64,000 nt of DNA from Sphaerodactylus townsendi. Taxonomy: Eukaryota. Position 1 is the first letter of the stretch. Every line of letters starts with the position of its first letter. The notes beneath the pieces were generated by a model. The model was not told where the DNA came from and did not search any database. It saw only the letters and a list, made by a program, of their open reading frames with translations. The stretch covers positions 123,132,001 through 123,196,000 of the forward strand of contig NC_059426.1 in the NCBI RefSeq assembly GCF_021028975.2, written 5' to 3'. A program made the translations under genes and the position numbers. Positions 19,941 to 46,877 of this stretch are shown here, piece after piece.

Positions 19941-24497
<4,557 letters not shown>

Positions 24498-29310: not shown

Positions 29311-32300
29311 CTGGAACAGAAAATACAATGCAAGACTTCTAAGCAAACAAGTAGGATAAAAATTTAAACTAATCAAGTCACTTGCTTCAAGAACGGGCCT
29401 ATATAGGGCAAATGTCACCTACCAGACATATTAAACAAATACAAATACTGGATGGCTGAGACCCTGAATAATTTGGTAACTGGCCATGGTTGCATATTAC
29501 ACCAATGCTTCAAGATGGATTTCTGCAGAGCAGAACTGATTATTCCTGTTTTGGCACACAAAGTCCTCAATGCCCTCGATCTAATAGTTTTAAAAATTCA
29601 TCTGCGTCTTGTGGTGAGCAAGGACTCCATAGCTTTAGTGCAAACTTTTTCCAGAAAGACCAACAAAACCCAAGCCTAGTGTCTTCTAGAAGCACAAGAC
29701 ACAATTAAGTTAGATGTTGAGAGGCCAGGAGCCATATGATCAGTGTGTACTAGAAATACACCCTAACTTTAAAGAAATATCTGTATTAATCTGTTGCAGC
29801 AAAATTACACAGGAATCAAGTTTCACCATGTGCTTTTGCAAGTCAGAGCTCACTTCTTAAGAAATCCTGAAGTGCATAAAGCAGGCCAGAATAATCATCT
29901 CCTGGTCAGAACAGGGAAGGGTTGGCAGAAGCAGGAAGATTAATATTCTCAAGGATAAGGGGATTCATACGTAAGTGGATATTGGAATCAAGTAGACTTT
30001 CAACTCCCAGTTTAACCTGCTATGGGAACATAATTACTACTTTATTTGTGCGCTTATATCCAGTAGAGGGATTCAGCCAGTTCGCTCGCGACTCCAAGGT
30101 TTGCGGTGGTGGAACTGATACTCTAATTCTGCTAGAGCTATGCGCTCGAGAACCAGGTTGTTGTAGAAGCGGCTTTCAGAGCCCCAGAGCAGCCGGGTGC
30201 CTTGCTGCCCAGCTGCTCTAAGGTGCTAAAAGTCCCATCGCGCCCTCTTCCAGGAGAAGGGGAGCGAGGGGGTTTTCAGAGTTGCCTTGCCGCCCAGCTG
30301 CTTCGAGGCGCTAAAAACACCATCTCGCCCTCTCCCAGGGGAGTGAGGGGGCTTCCAGAGTGGTGGCAGCAAGGCTCCATTCCCCCTCGCTCCACAAGAA
30401 GTTCCTCCGCAGCAGGTAAGTGGGCGGCGGGGGGCACAGCAGGGGGCAAATTGTTAAATTATTAGAATTAGAATTATTAGAACAATTATTAGGAATTTTT
30501 AAATTATCAGAATCCCACCACTGCTTATATCCCATCACTCCCAAAACTCAAGTTGCTCTTTATAAATGAACTGACCCAGTTCTAAGATCCATGTCCCCAA
30601 AGGGTGGACTTGATGTTAAATTAGAATTTCTCACCTTCTCATTTATCCGGTCTATCTGTCTGTTTTGTGAATCAATCTCATTGCCCATATCCATGGCCAT
30701 ATGTTTCAGATTCCCCAAGATGTTTCCCACTTGAGTCAGGTTTTCATCCATTTCATCCTCTCTGGCATCATTTGTCACCCTGTTGAAAGCATCAGAGGAA
30801 ACCTATGTTGAGAAATCATAGCTCTTTTCTTCTATATGAAAATACAAGTGGGAAGCCATGATAATCACTTGTGGGGGGAAACCCTTCTAACTGTTATGTG
30901 CAGAGTCCCCCCACCCACCCACCCCGCACTGTCAGCAAGCTGGGCACAACTTTGGCTTCCCACACAACATCCATCCCCAACGAGCCTCCATCTCCACCAC
31001 TGGGCCTGCCACATCTCCCCCCCCCCTCCTTTACACTGCTGCTAGGCTTGCCACATCTCCCAACACCTTCCCCCCCCCCCACAATCACCTCCACGGATGC
31101 AAGCCTGGCATAGTTCCGGTCCCCCCCCTTCCCCAACAAGCAATTGCATTCTCAGAAAGCCTGGTGTGGCTCCTGGCTCCTGCTGCCTGGTTGCCCATAT
31201 CTTCTGATCCCTCTCCCCGCCTCCATTCCCAGCAAGCCTAGTATGGCTTCCAGCCTCCGATGCCAAGCCTACCATAACTCCCAACTCCCCCCACATCTCT
31301 ATTCACTGCCTGGGCCAATATGGCAGCCATCAACTCCAGTGTTAGAAATGCAACAGGAAAAGGTAGGTGCACTGTGTGTATCTAGACAACAAATGTGTTT
31401 TTGGGGGGAGATTTAAATTCTACCTCCCATTGTACTCTTTAAAAGTTTTCGGATTTTTCTTGATTCACAGATTCAGGTATCTGTAATGCAGATGAGAAAC
31501 AGACATGGATACCATAATGTTACCGTCATCGTTTCTAGAAACTGCATTCTCACTGAAGTGTTACTGTGACAACCAAAATCAGAAAGTGATTTTAAAGTGT
31601 ACTACAGACTTATTCGTTTTGTAGATGTTGCATATTTTATACAGAATGAGTTTCTCTTCAAATTTTTCAAATGCAGTCATCATTGCTGCGGAATAGGAAT
31701 TGCTCAGTCTTCCATTCAGCAATGGACAGGAAATAAAAGCATCTTACCGTGCAATATAACCTCCAGTTGGTCCTCCTGACGTCTGCTGCTGACAATTTGC
31801 TACACGTGCTGGCTGTTTAGATACCACATGATCTTCATTTTCACCACTATCTCCCCAAGTTGTCTTATAATTCTTATTAGACTCAAAGTTCCTTGTTCTA
31901 TTAAAAAAAATAACACATTAGATCGACTACACTAAGGGAGCAATCCTAAACAGTTCTATTCAGAAATAGGTCCTATGTTTCTTGGTAGGGCTCACTCCCA
32001 GAAAAGTGACTTCAGGTTTTCAGCCAAAGTGCAATAGTAGAATTTTAATTGATTTAGGTTTGCCAAAGGATCAGGAAGCTGAAGCCAATCCTCGCTTCTG
32101 CCTAGACTAGTAAAACTCGTAACATGTTTTCAAACACCTGTTATATTCACTCCATTAAATAACATCCCAAGCAGCCCTAAACACCATGTTTTTACATTAT
32201 TTATTTTTACTTAATTTATACCCCACCTTTCTCTCCAATGGGAATGCTATATTTATACTTGAGGTCATTTACGTGTAATATCTCAGTTCAGTTTTTTTCA

Positions 32301-35300
32301 ACTCAATGTTTATTATTGCTTCCAATGACTGCTATATTGAACTTTAAGTGTCCTGCAACCTGAACCATATTGTATGATACAAGTAGGAATAAACGCTATT
32401 TAGGTTTGAACAGTAACCTCCTGCACAGGAGTACCCATTAGTAGTTACATTCATGTCTTCAAAATGAAGTTTCAGTAGGCTTAGGGATTCTTACATCAAT
32501 ATCATTTTGCGTGTGCATATACAATGAAACAGTTACTGGTGAGTCATACAATTGCATGGGAGATAAACACTTACCACATGGTATACATTTAAATATCTGA
32601 CTTTCAAGTAAAAATGAATTTATTATTCCAAATATAAGTGAAATTTGTCTGACAAGCCTTCACTGTCACTTTTCAACAATATTTCTCCAGCATCTAAATA
32701 TTTTTTCCAGTCTATAAACCACTATTTCCAATAGATTTAGAACTCCAAACATGAACTACTAGTATCCAAGTAGTTTCAGTGTTTGTTCAAATTAATTATG
32801 TCAGAACAAATAGTTTAACACAACATCACGGACACATACACCTACGAACCATGACACGACTGCTTGCATGTTAAGGAAGCATGCGCATGCAAACATGCAC
32901 CCAGTTAGGACATCACCTTCAGATAGCTGATTAACAGGCTGCTTCATAAGACTGATATTTTTCTAAAGTCCACTTTGCCCAGTTAACCGAATCCAATCTC
33001 TGGTGTTAAATCTTCATTTAGTAAGCAAGGAAAAGTGATATGGTTAGGGACAAGAGAGAGAAAGAGAGAGAGAACAAGAAAGTGAACAGCAAAACCAGCA
33101 AACTAATAAACAGCTCTCAGCAAATGCAGGTTATTTCAAAAGTAAAGCTGGGATTACGCCTAAGACTACAAAAAATGTAGGCTCAAATAACCCCAGGGGA
33201 AAAAAGAAAGATTTCACAAATACTGTATTCTCCATTTGTGTTAAAGGTATCCCAGAATGGAGCCTTGGAACTTCCTTCTACTTCAAGGTAAAGAGGGCAT
33301 CTTAGGGGTGCTCAGGGAGGCAGGACTAAAACTTTCCACTGTCCTCCATGCAGAAATTAATGGACCAATTTAAATTCTCTCTGAGCTAAAGAACAGGACA
33401 GGTGGGACCAACAAAAGATATAGAACAGAAATAAACAGTAATCATAAGAACAGGAGAAGATGAGCAAATTCATTCCCATTCTTAGCTATTCCCAAACACG
33501 TAACAATTCATTGACTTTCTATGCCTTTCCTTTTTGTTTCTGCAGCAAGTAGAATCTTGTTTCTTCCACCATGTTCTAAATAGCCATTCTCCAGGTAGGC
33601 AAGGATACCCTCCTTACCTCAGAACAGATGGAACCTTCATGATGAATTTCCAAGGTTTCATTCTTGCTTTGAGGAGGAGGACATCTTGGAAGTTTGGGAC
33701 TTCCAACAGTGGCATCCTTTTGCCTTCAGATGGAATTATGAGTCATCCACCATTTGCTGCAGGACTCGTCATCTGAAGGCTATATCAGCTGAAGAGGAAT
33801 TTAGCTTGCAGTGAATGATAAAGGTTAATATGGATGACCATATGGCCACTCTGCAGATCTCTCAGACTGAGGCTTGATGGCTGAATGCAGTGGGGGTGGC
33901 CATGCTTCATACTGTTCGAGCTGAGATGCTGAAGGAACTGGGATATTGCTACATCTGTATGCCTAAGAAATACATTGCTATATGTTGTAACTTATGGCTG
34001 ACCTGGATATTTTCTTTCCCTTGTTTGGGACTGCCAAGGAAATGAGTAAAAGGCTCGTTTCACAGATGGACTCTGTTCCCCAGTTGTATATCTTAAGAGC
34101 TCTTCTCAAATCTAGCTTATGCCAATCTTTTTCTTTTGGATACTTTGGTTGTTGAAATAAGGGTGGTAGATGAATCTCCTGCCTTCTGTGGAGTGACCAG
34201 TTAACCATGGAAATAAAGGTAGGGTCCAGTCGGAGCACCAACTTGTCTTTGTCGAAGACTCCCAGTTCTGATACTTTGTCGAAGACTCCCAGTTCTGATT
34301 CAAAGGTACTGTAGATAAGAACAAGGTTTTCATGTGAAGCCACTTAAGGGGAATCTCTTTTAACAGTTCAAAGGGAGCCTTGGAGGGAGCTGATAATACG
34401 TGTAGTCTTCACATAGGAAACTGATGGAATGACTAGAGGACTAGTCTGAATTATCCCACTTTGGAATGAGACTTTGTGTGGATGTTTTGTCATTGGAACT
34501 CCTGTTACTTGAGGAAGAATAGCTGCCGCCAACATAGCATGGAGGCCCTCAATTGCTAATGGACCACGTCTTGAAAGAAGGCCAACAACTGACCTAACCT
34601 TGGATTCAAAGAAACTTCCTTCTTGTGTTAACACCATCTCACAAAGACCTTCCATGATGTATATAAATACTTCGGGTGGATGGTCTTCTGGAGGCCATGA
34701 TGGCTTCAGCCACTTCCAGATGAACCCCACCCTTTCAAGAGTCACAGTCAAACGTTACAGTCCAGCTCTGGATGCTAAACCAGATCTTGCAATAACATAT
34801 CCTGGCTCACAGGAATTCACCACAGGTCTTGAACTGAAAGCTCCACTAAAGATGGAAACCAGGGCCTGGGGGGCCAGTCTGGAGCCATGGAGATAACAAG
34901 GGCTCGTTCCTGGCGTATCTTCCTCAGAGCTTTCAGAATAATCAGTAGAGATGAAAAGGCATATATAGCAGACCTAAGCCACAGAGAACTCAGGGCATCA
35001 ACTGTCTGCCCAAGGATGTTGGCACCTGGAACAGAATCATAGCACTAGATGGTTGGAGGCCAAGGTGAAGAAGTCCATGCTCAGAACACCGAATATGATC
35101 GTGATCAACTGAAATGTATCATTTTTTACAGACCACTCATTCTTGTCCATTCTCATCATGCTCAAACAGTGCACTTGCTGAGAGACCATTGGATATGCTA
35201 TGCTGAAATAGACTATAGGAGAATTTCTGTTCAAGACAAAATGCTTCTCACTTTCCCTTGCTTGTTGATGTGGGGCCTGATTGATATGTTGTCCATCCTG

Positions 35301-38300
35301 ATAAGGACCGACCCTAACCAATCGGATTGGCATACCATCTTAGAAAAGACAGGTCATCAGTATGGACTTGGAACAGAGACCTGCTTGCTATGCATGAAGT
35401 CAGGGGTATGTGCCTGCTGGTAGCAGCTGTTAACAAAGAGAATGCTGCAAAGGTCATACTGGCTAGGAAGGCATCTGCCAGAAAGGAAACAGTCTTAATG
35501 ATGTGATTTATGACTTCAGTAGCCCTTCTATTACCTCTAGGAATCAATTAGCTCAGTTTACACGCCCAGACAATGGAAGCCCTAGAAATAAAGGGTTGAC
35601 GTGGCCACTGACCTGATGGCTAGAGCCAACACTTCATGGGACTTTCTGGATGCAAAACCCAAATGCCCCAACTGGACCTCTCCGCTCAGCTGAGGTGAAT
35701 TTACTAGTAGTCCCCTACCCCTCCATGATGCGGCTGGCCTCTACCTGGGCAAGGGCTTTTACGGTCCTGGCCCCTGCCTAGTGGAACGCTCTCTCTCCAA
35801 CTGTTAGGACCCTGTGGGACCTTGGTGAGTTCTGCAGGGCCTGCAAAACTGAACTGTTCCACTGGGCTTTTGGGGGGCTGGAGTTACCACCCCTCTTTGA
35901 TGCCTAGTGTACTAGCTGCTTTCTGGTACTCTCCCAGAGAGTAGGTACTCTCCCTTTCTGGTACTCTCCCTTTCTGGTACTCTCCCAGAGAGTAGGATCG
36001 GACGCCATCCACTAAATTGTGAGTGGGCTTTACTGTTGCTACTGATTTTATTGTACTTTAATTGAATTTTAACTTATTAGATTTGTCTTTTTGTAATTTG
36101 TTATTTATTGTCTGTTTGTATGCTGTAAACCACTCTGAGCCCTTTGGGGGTAGAGTGGTCTATCAAATCAAATCAAATTATTATAGTTGTTGTTATTGTT
36201 AATTTTTTTCCTTTGGGCGGCTTGGTACTGGGCCGAAGGATGGCAGAATGATGACTTGACTCAGTGTGGAACTGGGTCCTCACTTTAGGCACAAAAAAAG
36301 GATCTAGTTTGAGGGCCACTGAATTATTCTGGAAGATGCAACATTCCCATCTAACTGACAAGGCACCTATCTCTGTTACTCCTCTGGCTGATGTTATGGA
36401 GACCTGAAAAGCCACCTTCCATGTGAGGTATTTAAGATCAACTGTTTTCAAGGGCTCAAAGGGTTTCCCAGTAAGAGTCTTTACATCTTACCCAGACTCC
36501 AAGTGTGATATCTGTGGGGAACTGGAGGTGCTAATTGGGCAACTCCTTTCAGAACTTCCTAATCAGTACGCTGGAAGCTAAAGGTCTTTACCTTCTTTGT
36601 CCCAGAATTGCTGCTGCTGCAGCAACATGCCTCCTTAGAATGTTTGTTTTGAGCCCCAGCTTTGCCAAATCTAGCCCACACTCTTTAGTGATGTGTGTGA
36701 GTGATGTTACATTATCCATGGAGCCTTTGTTTTCAATATCTGTGTTAAGCAATCCAGGTCTGAGAGGTAAGGCCTGCGATCATTGCCACAATGGGTCAAA
36801 TTGGCAGCCATTAGAAGTCTTTTCTGTATGGGAAGCCCTTTTCATGCCTTTTTCTAATGGTGTATTACGCCACTTTCTTTTTGTTGGCTGAGAAGAGGAA
36901 GCCCTTCCTTGCTCCTCTCTGCTAGATTCATAGGCTCCCCGCTGTGAAAAGAACAGACCCGACTCTGCATCCTCATTAGAGAGAAAGTCATCTCCTTTTA
37001 TACATATAGCTCTACTTTTATACATACAGCTCCATGGAGTTCTCCTTTAGCAGTAGTGGGGTGAAGGAGGAAAGCACCATAGAGCCGTGGTGGCGAACCT
37101 TTGGCACTCCAGATGTTATGGACTACAATTCCCATCAGCCCCTGGCAGTATGGCCAATTGGCCATGCTGACAGGGGCTGATGGGAATTGTAGTCCATAAC
37201 ATCTGGAGTGCCAAAGGTTTGCAACCACTGCCATAGCGGCAAAGAAAAAAACCCTACACATGGCAGTTGAAAAAGTGCACCTGGTAAGACAAAAGGCTTA
37301 AAGTAAAAGGAAGACCAGAAAGAGGTTAGAATAAGAAAAGAAGCAGAGAGGAGGAAAACTCAACCGCTGCAGAAGACTATCTGAGCTGCTCTTCCTTTGC
37401 AAGACAGGAATAAAACTAGTCCACAAGTTCCCACCTAGAAGCCAGGAAGTAGAAAGTTTCAGTCCAGCCTCCCTGAGTAGCTAGTGGGAAATACCCAAGC
37501 TTCCAGAATGCCCTCCTCTTCAGAGCAAACACTTATTGTTAAGAGAAAGTTACACAATGATGTAGCTCTGGACTACGAAAAAAGCCATTTCAGTAGTCCT
37601 TCTTCCTCGAAATCTCTACTGATGCTTCTCCTGTGCCTCCTCTTGCCCTCACTGGGGATTTGAAATCTAGACAACAGCAAATATCTTTCTCAAGTATGTA
37701 AATTTGAACAAACACCAGAAAAGCCCTAGGATAAGGTAAGTACTCTTCATAAACACTAGTAATAATATGATAGAAAAAGAAGGAAGAAGAACAGAAACTT
37801 ATTGGGCATATTACACTTTCACTAAACTCTCAAGGCACATGCAATTCAGATTTTTTGCTTTTGGTCATTCAGTTTACAAAGATGCACACTGGAATTAAAA
37901 GTGACATTTTAAATGTATGTACTGATCACTATGTTTTCAAAACAGTCAACAGTAGTAATTTAAAACACCATCTAAACTACATTAATATTCTATTCCTTTT
38001 CCTTTACCCAGGTTCAACCTCCCTAATACTAAAGAGAGAGAGCTGAAACGCACCCCAGTAAAAGCCTGCCAGTCTTTGAATGTCTGAATGTTTCCTAATA
38101 AGATGCTCAAAGAAAACTAGTCTGTCTTGGAATTAAATCTTCATTTAACTGACCTATTCCAAGGACAGACACAAAGGCCACAACACTTGTTCAGCTCGGT
38201 CAAGTTCTTCTCGGCTTCTCTCATGTCTCTATTTATCTGGTCCATGCCTTCTTCTATACGGTCTAGTTGCTCTATGGAAAACATTAAACAAAAGAAAGTT

Positions 38301-42976: not shown

Positions 42977-43400
42977 TCATTCCCCGATAATGTGTTCCAA
43001 CACTTGTCTGCCAAAGGTGGCTTCAGAGGCTGCTAGGGAATGGAGTTTATAGTGTCTGACAAAAATGGATGCTGAAGACCAAGTAGCAGCTCTACAGATG
43101 TCTATCAGGGGGACCTGTTTTCTGAAGGCCACGTTGGCAGCCACCGCACGCGTGGAGTGAGCCGTGATCCTCTGAGGGAGGGGATGGTTCGATGCTTTAT
43201 AGGCTTCAATGATACAGGCCTTAATTGTTTTACTAATTGCTGCCTTGGTCATTCGACCAAGCGACCTCACGAACGCTTTCCACGAGGAATTGTAGATGTT
43301 ATTTGTAGAAGAACGTCGTGAGGCTAGAAGCGTGTTGGTGACTTGTTCAGAGTATCCCTTGCGTCTTAGGAGATTCCTCTCAAGCGCCACACGGTCAGTT
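42977..43400 (-). pseudogene. DIRS tyrosine recombinase, internally deleted
   Basis: GYS..LLASRR.ST..IY...WKAF N-terminal part fused near 43264 directly to the AHSTR..ATWSS..FVRHY C-terminal part. Confidence 0.85.
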
Positions 43401-45230
43401 TGAACCACTGCGGGTTCGGGTGGGAAACTGGACCTTGAGTCAACAAGTCTGGTGGCGTTGGAAGTGGAAGGCCCGGGGAGACTACCATCTCCAGAATGGA
43501 TGAGAGCCAAGGCCAGTACGGTGCTACTAGAATCACCTCGGCTTGTTCCGCTGCTATTTTCCTCAACACCTTGGAAATAATGGGGAGGGGAGGGAAGGCT
43601 TATAACAGAGCTTTGGGCCATGGCATTACTAAGGCGTCCACTTCTGCCGCCTTTGGATGACAGAACCGGGACACGAAGCAGGGCAGTTGACGGTTTTCTG
43701 CTGAAGCGAACAGATCTAACTTGGGGTACCTGAAGGTCCTCGTGATCATTTGGAAGATTGCTGGCTTTAGCCTCCATTCTGCTTCTGCAACAGTTTGCCT
43801 GCCGATCCAGTCGGCTGTGATGTTCAACTGTCCCCTGATGCGTTCCGCCGATAGCGAAAGTAGGTGAGTTTCGGTCCATGACAGAATGAGCATGACTTCC
43901 CTGTGTATCTGGGATGACTTGGACCTGCCTTGGTTGTTTAGGTACGCCTTTGCTGTGGTGTTGTCCGTACGTATGGGAACATGGGTCCCTTGAAGCACTG
44001 ACTGAAAATGCAGAAGGGCTTTGAAGATAGATCTCGTCTCCAGAAAGTTGATGGGTAAGATCGTTTTGTCTGCTGACCAGAAACCCTGAACAAACTGTTC
44101 TCCCAAGGATGCTCCCCACCTCGGAGACTGGCATCTGTGATCACCTGGTTCCTGTCTGGATGGAGATATACTTTTCCCTTCGATAGGTTGCGCTCAGAGG
44201 TCCACCACCGGAGATCCTTGCGAAGGCAGAGCAACTATGCGATCTTGCTTCAGCATGATCTGTAGTTGGAAGGGATGCAGAAAGATTTGCAAGGGCCGGG
44301 TGTGGAGTCTGCCCCACTAAAGCATATTGAATACCAACACCATCAGACTCGCCAATAGAAGGAGAGATTATGTTAGCTTGGAGATGATGAGTGAAACCGT
44401 CCGTTGGAAGCGTAGTCTCTTGTCCTGTGGGATGAATAGAAAGTTCTTGGAGGTGTCGATGAATGCTCCCAAGTGTTCCATTGTCTGCGATGGAATGATT
44501 GTACTCTTGTCTAGGTTCACTATGAAACTGTGATCTTGCAGAACCTTCTGCGCTGTTTGGACATCCTTGGTTGCTTGTTGAGCTGATCTTGACCGGACCA
44601 GGATGTCGCCGAGGTATGGGTAAGCATGAATCTTCTGCTCCTGAAGCAGGGTAATGGGACACAGCAGAATCTTGGAAAAAACTCAAGGGGCTATGGCCAA
44701 CCCGAAAGGTAGAGCTCTGAACTGGAACTGTGGCTTGCGTACTGCAAAGTGGAGATACTTCCTGTGAGAATGGTTAATCGGGATGTGGAGGTAGGCCTCT
44801 GTCAGGTCTAAGGAGGTCAGAAAGTCGCCTGGACGAAGATTTTCTACGATGGAACGAAGTGTTTCCATCCTGAATCGATGTAGCTGTAGATGTCGATAGA
44901 TGAACTTCAGATTGAGTATTGCTCGCCAGTCCCCGTTGAGCTTTGGCACTGTGAAAAAGTGAGAGAACACCCCCAAGGATCTCTCCAATTCTGGCACTGG
45001 TTCTATTGCCTGAATACTGATAAGGTGTTGAATGGCCCGTTGTGTTCTTTGTGCCTTGTCTATGTTGGCATTGATTGCGAACGCGCGAAAACGCTGCGGG
45101 GGTAGGTGAGCAAATTCGATCGAGTAACCTAACTGAATGACCTCCTGAGACCAGCGGTCTACATGGCTGCCTTCCCATTGATGACTGAAAAATTGAAGGC
45201 GGCCACCTACCGGGGTTAGGTGAGAGTCAT
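43366..45230 (-). pseudogene. DIRS RT/RNase H/methyltransferase ORF, inactivated
   Basis: Stop at 44683 (AP*VF, expected APRVF), YLGD instead of YLDD at 44605-44616, frameshifts, stop before AFPP at 43600. Confidence 0.88.
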
Positions 45231-46877
45231 TGTTTGGTGGATCCTTCGGAACGGAAGGGTTTTCCGGATTTTGAGTTGGTACGAAAGGAACTATTGAATT
45301 GTCCAGTGTGTCTACGGAAACCCTGTTGGGCTTGCCAGCGTTTACCATCACGGGAAGGTCTAGGAAGGGTTTTATGCGACCGGAATGTGGATGTTGGCCT
45401 GCTGTTCTGATTAGAATGGTCAGCTCTGAGCAACTTGGGCATGGCTTTTTTGTTGTCCTTAGTTTGCACTAGAACTTGTTCCAATTCTGGGCTGAAAAGG
45501 GTGCCACCCTGGAATGAATAACCTGCCACGAGATGTTTTGACTGAACGTCTGCTGGCCAGGCTCTGAGCCAAGCATGCCTCCTAGCCACTACACTGTTGG
45601 CCATAACCTTTACTGTTAGTAGAAGGCCTTCGTGGTTAGAATCTGCCAGGTAAGAAGTGCTAAGGAGAATTCTTTCCACTCCCTCTCTAATGGCTTTAGA
45701 CTCAGGCGGGAGCATATCCAAAATTCTGCGCAGCCAGATGATTGCAGCCCTAGCCATAGTGGCTAATGAAAGAAGGAGCTTTGCTAATGCTGCAAGGCCA
45801 TTGTGGGCTTTTTTGGGAATGGCCTCAGAATGCTTGTCTAGTTGGTCTTTGATGGTACCAACACCATCTTTGGACACCAAGCCCCCCCGATTGGAGAGTG
45901 GAGATGGGGGCGTCCACCAGGGGAATCTGGAGCATTCTGGTGATGTAGTCTGGCACTGGGTACAACTTTTTGAATGATGGAGACAGGTTTTTAGCCAAGG
46001 TGGGAGATGCCCATTCTTTGAGAATTCCTCGTTGAAAATACTCTGGCATTGGCAGAAACTCAGAGTTACAGTCCTATTGTGGAAAAATGTCTTTTCCCCC
46101 TTTAGGGCAGCCCTTGATGGGCTTATCTGATTTAGAAGTGGCTGCAGGATCAAAGGCATCTTCAGAGTCCTTAAGATCCAGTGCAGAAATGGCTTTGGTA
46201 ATAAGAGAAATATTTTCTATATTGAAAAACTTTAAAGGTTGCTCCTGATTGTCTGAACTGGCCCCATCCGACTCTGAAAAATGATCAGAGTCCTCTCCTA
46301 TTTCCCCTTCACTGATGTCTTCATCTCCCGGGAAGGCTAAGGGGTCCCTGCATCTAGGTCTGCCCCTGTGTGTTGGGGAGATAGAGCAGTTGGAGAGGGA
46401 GAGGGAGACTGCCTCCTGCATCTGGGACCATGCTCTTTCTTATGATAAGACTGAATCTCCTCTCTCATAGCTTCTCTGAACAAGTTAACTAGGGGGGAGG
46501 TGTCATGCCATCTGTTTAAGCTGGGGAGAGCTACGGGGCGATCACCCTGCCCCCCTCTCCCTTGCAACATGGGCGCGATCTTGCCTGGTCGAGAAGGAAT
46601 CGCTTTCTTCTCCCTCCTCCTCGTCTTCGTCTGATTGTGCTGCGTTCCGAGCCTCCGTGGCGGTGTCCTCTGTTGCCAGACAGTGGGGCTGCCAAGACGC
46701 CTGCTGCTGCGTGCGAGGCCTCCGGGTCCTGCACGTGATCGTCAACCCCCTGAGGGGTAGGAAAGCGCCGGGAGGGAGCAGAGGAGACCCAGGGAAAAAA
46801 GGCATCCTCAGCGGTTGTGCGGGGGCCGCCGGTGCTCGGCTCCTGGCTCTGGGTTTTTTCTCACCGCTTCTTGCCAC
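45227..46877 (-). pseudogene. DIRS gag-like ORF1, frameshifted
   Basis: Fragments in ORFs 46542-46877, 46074-46421, 45825-46049 (KEW..KKLYPVP..IPLVDAPI) and 45227-46159. Confidence 0.8.

What the first reader, a model, noticed from the sequence alone, without database searches (positions are those of the whole stretch)
32860..33130. Hidden SNAP23 microexon with RBFOX/QKI/MBNL-type regulatory motifs, possibly using a GC donor
Seen (minus strand): a long CT tract, branch point CCCTAAC about 33 nt upstream, then AAG|ATTTAACACCAGAGATTGGATTCGGTTAACTGG|GCAAAG. Either 33 nt (32979-33011, GC donor) or 24 nt (32988-33011, GTTAAC donor) keeps the phase-2 frame with no stop. It would insert FNTRDWIR(LTG) right after the Cys cluster. 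Downstream are CTAAC (32904-32908), TGCATG x2 (32886-32891, 32894-32899), an extra GCATG and YGCY motifs. Established (from memory): mouse Snap23 has a 33-nt muscle-enriched microexon regulated by MBNL, QKI and RBFOX2. Inference: this is its squamate orthologue, too short to appear in the ORF track.
Basis: partly seen in the sequence, partly recalled or inferred. Interest (0 to 1): 0.7.

Follow-up and report, generated by a model that had tools for sequence, protein, structure and literature searches.

The report
Muscle splicing enhancer outlasting its microexon
The proposed hidden mini-exon in the gecko SNAP23 gene matches the intronic control sequence that lies behind the known mouse muscle mini-exon rather than that exon itself, and the exon's own counterpart likely sits about 120-150 bases upstream with no usable splice donor, so this gecko likely keeps the control element without making the mammalian muscle form.

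Summary
That match is the best in the 64-kb window (0 of 300 shuffles reach it). In mouse this site is intronic, 83-194 nt downstream of the exon donor. The RBFOX pair also matches. The exon's counterpart therefore lies upstream, probably 33165-33130: acceptor intact, no GT/GC donor (weak alignment, p about 0.16). The block 32670-33256 is 88-91% identical in another gecko, like coding exon 6 (88%). Four of four own-species or near-relative runs show the skip junction. No inclusion joint was displayed, but rows were hidden and tissues unknown. None of 20 named squamate proteins has an insert; placentals and two swans do. Verdict: a conserved muscle splicing enhancer whose exon likely decayed. 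The scan noted similar worn SNAP23 exons in two shark genomes (unchecked).

The parts
38154..38271 (-). SNAP23 exon 5 (118 nt, cysteine cluster, ends in phase 2)
   Evidence: translation; exon 6 is identical to P0001, named Sphaerodactylus townsendi SNAP23, whose cluster reads as in this exon; spliced in X18 contig and reads
31748..31897 (-). SNAP23 exon 6 (mouse exon 7); joined directly to exon 5 in the RNA examined
   Evidence: skip joint 31897-38154 in 4 of 4 runs
32670..33256 (-). conserved intronic block carrying the microexon's regulatory region
   Evidence: contigs of another gecko (X2): 35 differences and 12 gap letters over 32670-33046, 21 and 7 over 33083-33256; exon 6 has 19 over 154
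33130..33165 (-). likely decayed counterpart of the mammalian microexon: T-rich TAG acceptor at 33166, open in frame for 36 nt, no GT/GC at the donor-equivalent place
   Evidence: best match of the mouse donor primer in the 250 nt upstream of the QKI#2 anchor is 33139-33118, not significant alone (16% of random windows reach it); donors listed
33047..33082 (-). CT microsatellite / pyrimidine tract; mouse also has a pyrimidine run just before QKI#2
   Evidence: mouse primers; repeat skipped by read laying
   Evidence: top hit of the mouse morpholino target in the whole window, 0 of 300 shuffles; 2 of 1000 random windows; A-run is 3 here, 4 in X2's gecko, 5 in mouse
32880..32899 (-). RBFOX cluster (two TGCATG and one GCATG), counterpart of mouse RBFOX2 #1+2
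   Evidence: only such pair in the window; 5 of 1000 random windows match the mouse morpholino target as well
32904..32908 (-). CTAAC, partial QKI-type motif just before the RBFOX cluster
   Evidence: function untested
38128..38147 (-). second copy (18 of 20 identical) of the QKI#2-type element, starting at +7 of intron 5
   Evidence: direct repeat D4; second-best hit of the mouse morpholino target; a pattern built from both copies occurs only at these two places in the genome

Best explanation
The stretch matches the intronic QKI and RBFOX binding sites that lie downstream of the mouse Snap23 muscle microexon, so it is likely that exon's conserved splicing enhancer and not the exon, whose gecko counterpart likely lies about 120-150 nt upstream (33165-33130) with an acceptor but no donor. 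[quoted passage not shown] In the gecko the same proteins would still bind (inferred from motif conservation), but at the donor-equivalent place the sequence reads AAC|CTG, so there is no 5' splice site to rescue and exon 5 would join exon 6 directly, as in the RNA examined. The 11-residue muscle insert behind the cysteine cluster would then be missing. Shown: motif homology and order, conservation of the block in a second gecko, the skip junction. Inferred: exact position of the decayed exon, protein binding, absence of inclusion in adult muscle. Why the block stays conserved is not settled; residual use of the 33165 acceptor (rival 1) is the likeliest reason.
For: (a) The mouse QKI#2 morpholino target has its best hit in the whole window, both strands, at 33019-33001; 0 of 300 intron shuffles reach it, 2 of 1000 random windows. 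The QKI#2 probe printed extends the match 5' and differs only by two A in the A-run (read by eye); X2's gecko has the intermediate run length (one inserted letter at 33016). (b) The paper puts both QKI and both RBFOX motifs downstream of the exon and none upstream. Primer lengths put QKI#2 83-194 nt after the donor (my hand sum), which maps the donor to about 33105-33216. (c) Order is kept: donor-like 33139-33118, QKI#2 33022-33001, RBFOX 32900-32873. (d) The mouse also has the pyrimidine run and the AAG at this site, yet the paper reports only exon 6 as alternative. (f) Skip joint in 4 of 4 runs (contig depth 44.8; 7, 13, 7 reads); the bin 32808-33151 has depth 0 in X22 and 0.24 in X20. (g) 0 of 20 named squamate proteins carry an insert; a search aimed at insert forms gave placentals and swan only among the best 120 of 307.
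Against: The donor-primer match at 33139-33118 is not significant alone (16% of random windows), nor is QKI#1 (21%). Its GC donor could pair better with one bulged A (my inference). RNA tests are weak: tissues unknown, few reads, 42 joint rows and 28 'letters between' rows hidden, contigs drop rare forms. Conservation as high as a coding exon is not what a wholly dead element should show. Only one other gecko could be compared, and 41 of its 81 differences were not displayed.
Confidence: 0.6

Rival explanations
1. The enhancer still controls an exon that starts at the ancestral acceptor (33165) but ends at another donor: a 6-nt in-frame exon (GC at 33159) or a frameshifting exon (8, 17, 38 or 44 nt) that would send the mRNA to nonsense-mediated decay in muscle.
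For: The acceptor is as T-rich as true SNAP23 acceptors (80% pyrimidine at -14..-5). Conservation in X2's gecko starts about 90 nt upstream of it (33256). X2's mRNA contig ends 3 letters beyond exon 6, a branch that an exon ending in TAG would give. Exons under 31 nt would not break an intronic contig (inference).
Against: All these donors are weak. The branch at 31900 is explained as well by unspliced RNA, which that run holds at depth 12-15 against 133. No such joint or inserted letters were displayed.
Confidence: 0.2
2. Exon turnover: the ancestral exon died and a new 33-nt (or 24-nt) exon at 32979-33011 now uses the same RBFOX sites 80 nt downstream, adding [10 protein letters not shown] behind the cysteine cluster.
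For: First AG after CCCTAAC and a pyrimidine tract; same length, phase and donor type as the mouse exon; peptide in the top 5% against mammalian inserts (rank 166 of 3661); no indel shown inside it in X2's gecko.
Against: AAG acceptor preceded by purines and overlapped by a QKI site, which upstream of an exon represses; the same AAG is not reported as used in mouse; donor without +5G; 24 such 33-nt candidates in this intron; a titin-holding run of another gecko gives one contig running straight across it (presence of the unspliced form only); no joint displayed.
Confidence: 0.12
3. The block is a slowly decaying relic without splicing function in geckos.
For: No donor at either orthologous register; no insert in 20 of 20 named squamate proteins; a nearby intronic piece without known motifs is still 84% identical in X2.
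Against: 88-91% identity over about 550 nt while 32479-32670 is replaced; QKI#2 and the RBFOX pair are still recognisable against mouse.
Confidence: 0.08

Closest known systems
Mouse/human Snap23 exon 6, 33-nt striated-muscle microexon (PMC12064062)
   Same: Same gene and intron, phase-2 slot right after the cysteine cluster; QKI#2 site with half-site and tandem RBFOX motifs kept in order; YGCY motifs near the QKI site.
Swan SNAP23 isoform X1 models (P0075, P0121)
   Same: An insert at the same junction, SDIWFLRS / SYMWFLRS, that resembles the mammalian SDVGCFYET minus two residues, which suggests the exon predates the mammal-reptile split (my reading).
   Different: 27 nt, database models only; neither gecko candidate peptide clearly matches; DNA context not available.
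Cltc microexon 33 (PMC13676984)
   Same: A muscle microexon whose homologous sequence exists in other species but is not spliced there, attributed to weak splice sites (passages).
   Different: There the region is poorly conserved and the exon is a rodent gain; here the enhancer is deeply conserved and the exon looks lost.
SNAP25 exon 5a/5b tandem duplication (PMC2581893)
   Same: Paralogous gene, same exon; the 20-nt repeat hints at an old local duplication in SNAP23.
   Different: No significant likeness of the block to exon 5 coding sequence; gecko SNAP25 5a/5b lacks the element.

Membership tests
   it starts inside the QKI#2 counterpart
   peptide rank 166 of 3661, score about 0; the donor primer has no top intron hit there and its best anchored match is upstream
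   GC present but no -2A or +5G; 4 of 11 pairs plus one wobble
   only skipping displayed; tissues unknown, rows hidden
Orthologue of Snap23 exon 6 microexon (33165-33130) | Upstream of QKI#2 at mouse-like spacing, with an acceptor | tested here: met
   108 nt before the core, mouse range 83-194; T-rich TAG
Orthologue of Snap23 exon 6 microexon (33165-33130) | GT or GC donor at the exon end | tested here: not met
   AAC|CTG
Snap23 exon 6 downstream enhancer | QKI#2 core plus half-site, followed by two RBFOX motifs | tested here: met
Snap23 exon 6 downstream enhancer | QKI#1 ACUAAC site | tested here: inconclusive
   best match not above chance (21%); CCTAAC at 33048-33043 is a partial motif
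Snap23 exon 6 downstream enhancer | Bound by QKI and RBFOX2 and needed for inclusion | not testable with these tools
   shown for mouse only

The most novel reading that the evidence does not exclude
Probability: 0.25. Interest if true: 0.6.

Novelty: new variant of a known kind. Interest (0 to 1): 0.3.

Why it matters
The function of the mammalian 11-residue SNAP23 insert is unknown, and its conservation was reported for mammals only (PMC12064062). Swan models with a related insert and a gecko enhancer still alignable to mouse suggest the switch is at least as old as amniotes. If geckos kept the enhancer but lost the insert, they are a natural knock-out of the peptide and hint that the regulatory block is under stronger constraint than the peptide. 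It also warns that QKI sites, which resemble branch points, plus a pyrimidine run can mimic a 3' splice site. The effect is one small exon in one gene, so the reach is modest.

Tried and rejected
Run search with a titin stretch to favour muscle-containing runs: no RNA holder listed on record and tissues not given. X18 and X2 proved to hold spliced SNAP23 when laid. X1, X4 and X5 gave no SNAP23 cover, so they say nothing. The first lay was crowded by intronic repeats, hiding 42 joint rows. Idea that the block is a decayed tandem copy of exon 5, as in SNAP25: the exon-only alignment is no better than random (598 and 595 of 600 windows reach it) and gecko SNAP25 lacks the element; kept only as a possible origin of the 20-nt repeat. 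Likeness of the mouse donor primer to the exon 5 donor: 6% of random windows, not accepted. The exon 6 and exon 7 rows of the U1 table were one base off and are not used. Literature: no paper found on a reptile or bird SNAP23 microexon in searches of this library (open-access PMC and bioRxiv only). Figure S2B and Figures 4A/5E of the mouse paper are pictures and could not be seen; the full mouse intron was not available. Earlier-findings look-ups by place and by sequence were empty.

Full report
Setting. The window holds SNAP23 on the minus strand. The exon at 31897-31748 is 100% identical to a protein named SNAP23 of Sphaerodactylus townsendi. Exon 5 (38271-38154) ends after the cysteine cluster in phase 2, and a 6256-nt intron follows. 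The 401-nt stretch around the finding is single-copy in the genome.

Observation. Every motif is present as described. The TGCATG pair is the only pair within 20 nt on either strand of the window, so the motif cluster is real. The exon call is not unusual in itself: 463 open phase-2 AG..GT/GC candidates of 3-51 nt exist in this intron, 24 of them 33 nt long.

What is known. From PMC12064062 I read the abstract, introduction, sections 8, 22, 23, 28, 31-35 and the supplement text, but no figures. [quoted passage not shown] Two QKI and two RBFOX2 motifs lie within 300 nt downstream and none upstream. Conservation was shown for mammals.

The test that changed the reading. The supplement prints oligos covering the mouse donor and the four motifs. 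The QKI#2 morpholino target has its best hit in the whole 64-kb window at 33019-33001; 0 of 300 shuffled introns reach it, and 2 of 1000 random windows. The QKI#2 probe extends the match 5' and differs only in the length of an A-run: 3 here, 4 in a second gecko, 5 in mouse. The RBFOX morpholino target matches 32900-32873 (5 of 1000). In mouse these sites are intronic. Summing primer lengths by hand puts QKI#2 83-194 nt after the donor. The mouse also has a pyrimidine run before QKI#2 and the same AAG.

Where the exon's counterpart is. The spacing maps the donor to about 33105-33216. There the mouse donor primer fits best at 33139-33118 (score 22, next 14), but 16% of random windows do as well, so this placement is inferred. 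A T-rich TAG acceptor at 33166 opens a stop-free 36-nt frame to 33130, followed by CTG, not GT or GC. Other donors behind that acceptor are weak and give 6 nt in frame, 8, 17, 38 or 44 nt out of frame, or longer forms with a stop. In both registers no intact exon exists. The QKI#1 match is not above chance.

Conservation. Contigs of run X2, another gecko with spliced SNAP23, cover 32670-33046 at 90.7% and 33083-33256 at 87.9%; coding exon 6 is at 87.7%, a further intronic piece at 84.4%, and 32479-32670 is replaced. No indel was displayed inside either candidate exon; 41 of 81 substitutions were not displayed, so the splice dinucleotides could not be checked.

RNA. All 4 runs (one of the own species label, three raw-read runs of a near relative) show exon 5 joined to exon 6: contig depth 44.8, and 7, 13 and 7 reads. 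No joint to 33011, 32979, 32988 or 33165 was displayed, but 42 joint rows were hidden. Depth in 32808-33151 was 0.24, 0.75 and 0 in the raw-read runs. Tissues are unknown, so muscle-specific inclusion is not excluded.

Proteins. Of 251 SNAP23 proteins fetched, 207 could be parsed: 52 carry an insert at this junction (49 named placentals, 1 unnamed of mammalian type, 2 swans) and 155 do not; 44 were unparsed. None of the 20 named squamate proteins has one, and the three accessions listed for this species' protein share one 208-residue sequence. favours skip forms, but one search was aimed at insert forms and listed no squamate insert among the best 120 of 307. The swan inserts resemble the mammalian one minus two residues, which suggests an amniote-old exon.

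Mechanism and odds. Most likely (0.6) this is the conserved QKI/RBFOX enhancer, and the exon it rescues in mammals has lost its donor here, so the gecko makes the skip form.

Unexplained. The QKI#2-type element has a second copy, 18 of 20 identical, at +7 of the same intron. A pattern built from both occurs only at these two places in the genome. An exact 15-nt repeat arose in 22 of 500 shuffles, and in 0 of 500 with one copy in the first 30 nt, a condition set after the fact. An old duplication of the exon 5 end is possible, but exon 5 coding sequence shows no likeness to the block, and gecko SNAP25 5a/5b lacks the element. For PMC2581893 and PMC13676984 I saw passages only.

Earlier notes of this scan describe worn or altered SNAP23 exons at this place in two shark genomes. 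They are unchecked AI notes and are not counted as support.

Verdict. Observation confirmed, interpretation partly supported: a variant of a known system with a probably decayed exon. Interest 0.3.

Noticed in passing
window 38128-38147 and 33001-33020 (-): Two copies (18 of 20 identical) of the QKI#2-type element, one at +7 of intron 5 and one in the conserved block; a pattern built from both occurs nowhere else in the genome. Origin and role unknown.
   Followed up: partly
window 38159-38161 (-), exon 5: The last cysteine of the cluster is Trp (CCGLCVCPW) here, in Heteronotia and Gekko, and in three marsupials (P0072, P0078, P0080), but Cys in Eublepharis and the other squamates listed: likely independent loss of one palmitoylation site (role recalled).
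   Followed up: no
P0075, P0121: Swan SNAP23 models carry a 9-residue insert at the microexon junction, outside the mammals for which the exon was reported.
   Followed up: partly
window 37084-37231: 148-nt palindrome (74-nt arms, 93% complementary) hit by very many RNA reads and contigs from elsewhere: likely a high-copy small transposon.
   Followed up: no
window 33311-33340/37448-37477 and 32779-32793/37701-37715: Two nested inverted repeats across intron 5 (30 nt at 90%, 15 nt at 100%); the inner would loop out 4.1 kb before the conserved block, the outer would enclose it. May be chance or transposon-derived.
   Followed up: no
window about 34200-36500 and 43400-46400 (-): Broken ORFs that look like DIRS-type retroelements inside SNAP23 introns (label recalled from the translations).
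   Followed up: no
window 22471-23835 (+): Leucine-rich-repeat exons, likely the neighbouring gene LRRC57 (name recalled).
   Followed up: no
L143 (G000:C1:180590035-180590430): Gecko SNAP25 exons 5a and 5b, with a run of TGCC repeats (YGCY, MBNL-type) right after the 5b donor.
   Followed up: no
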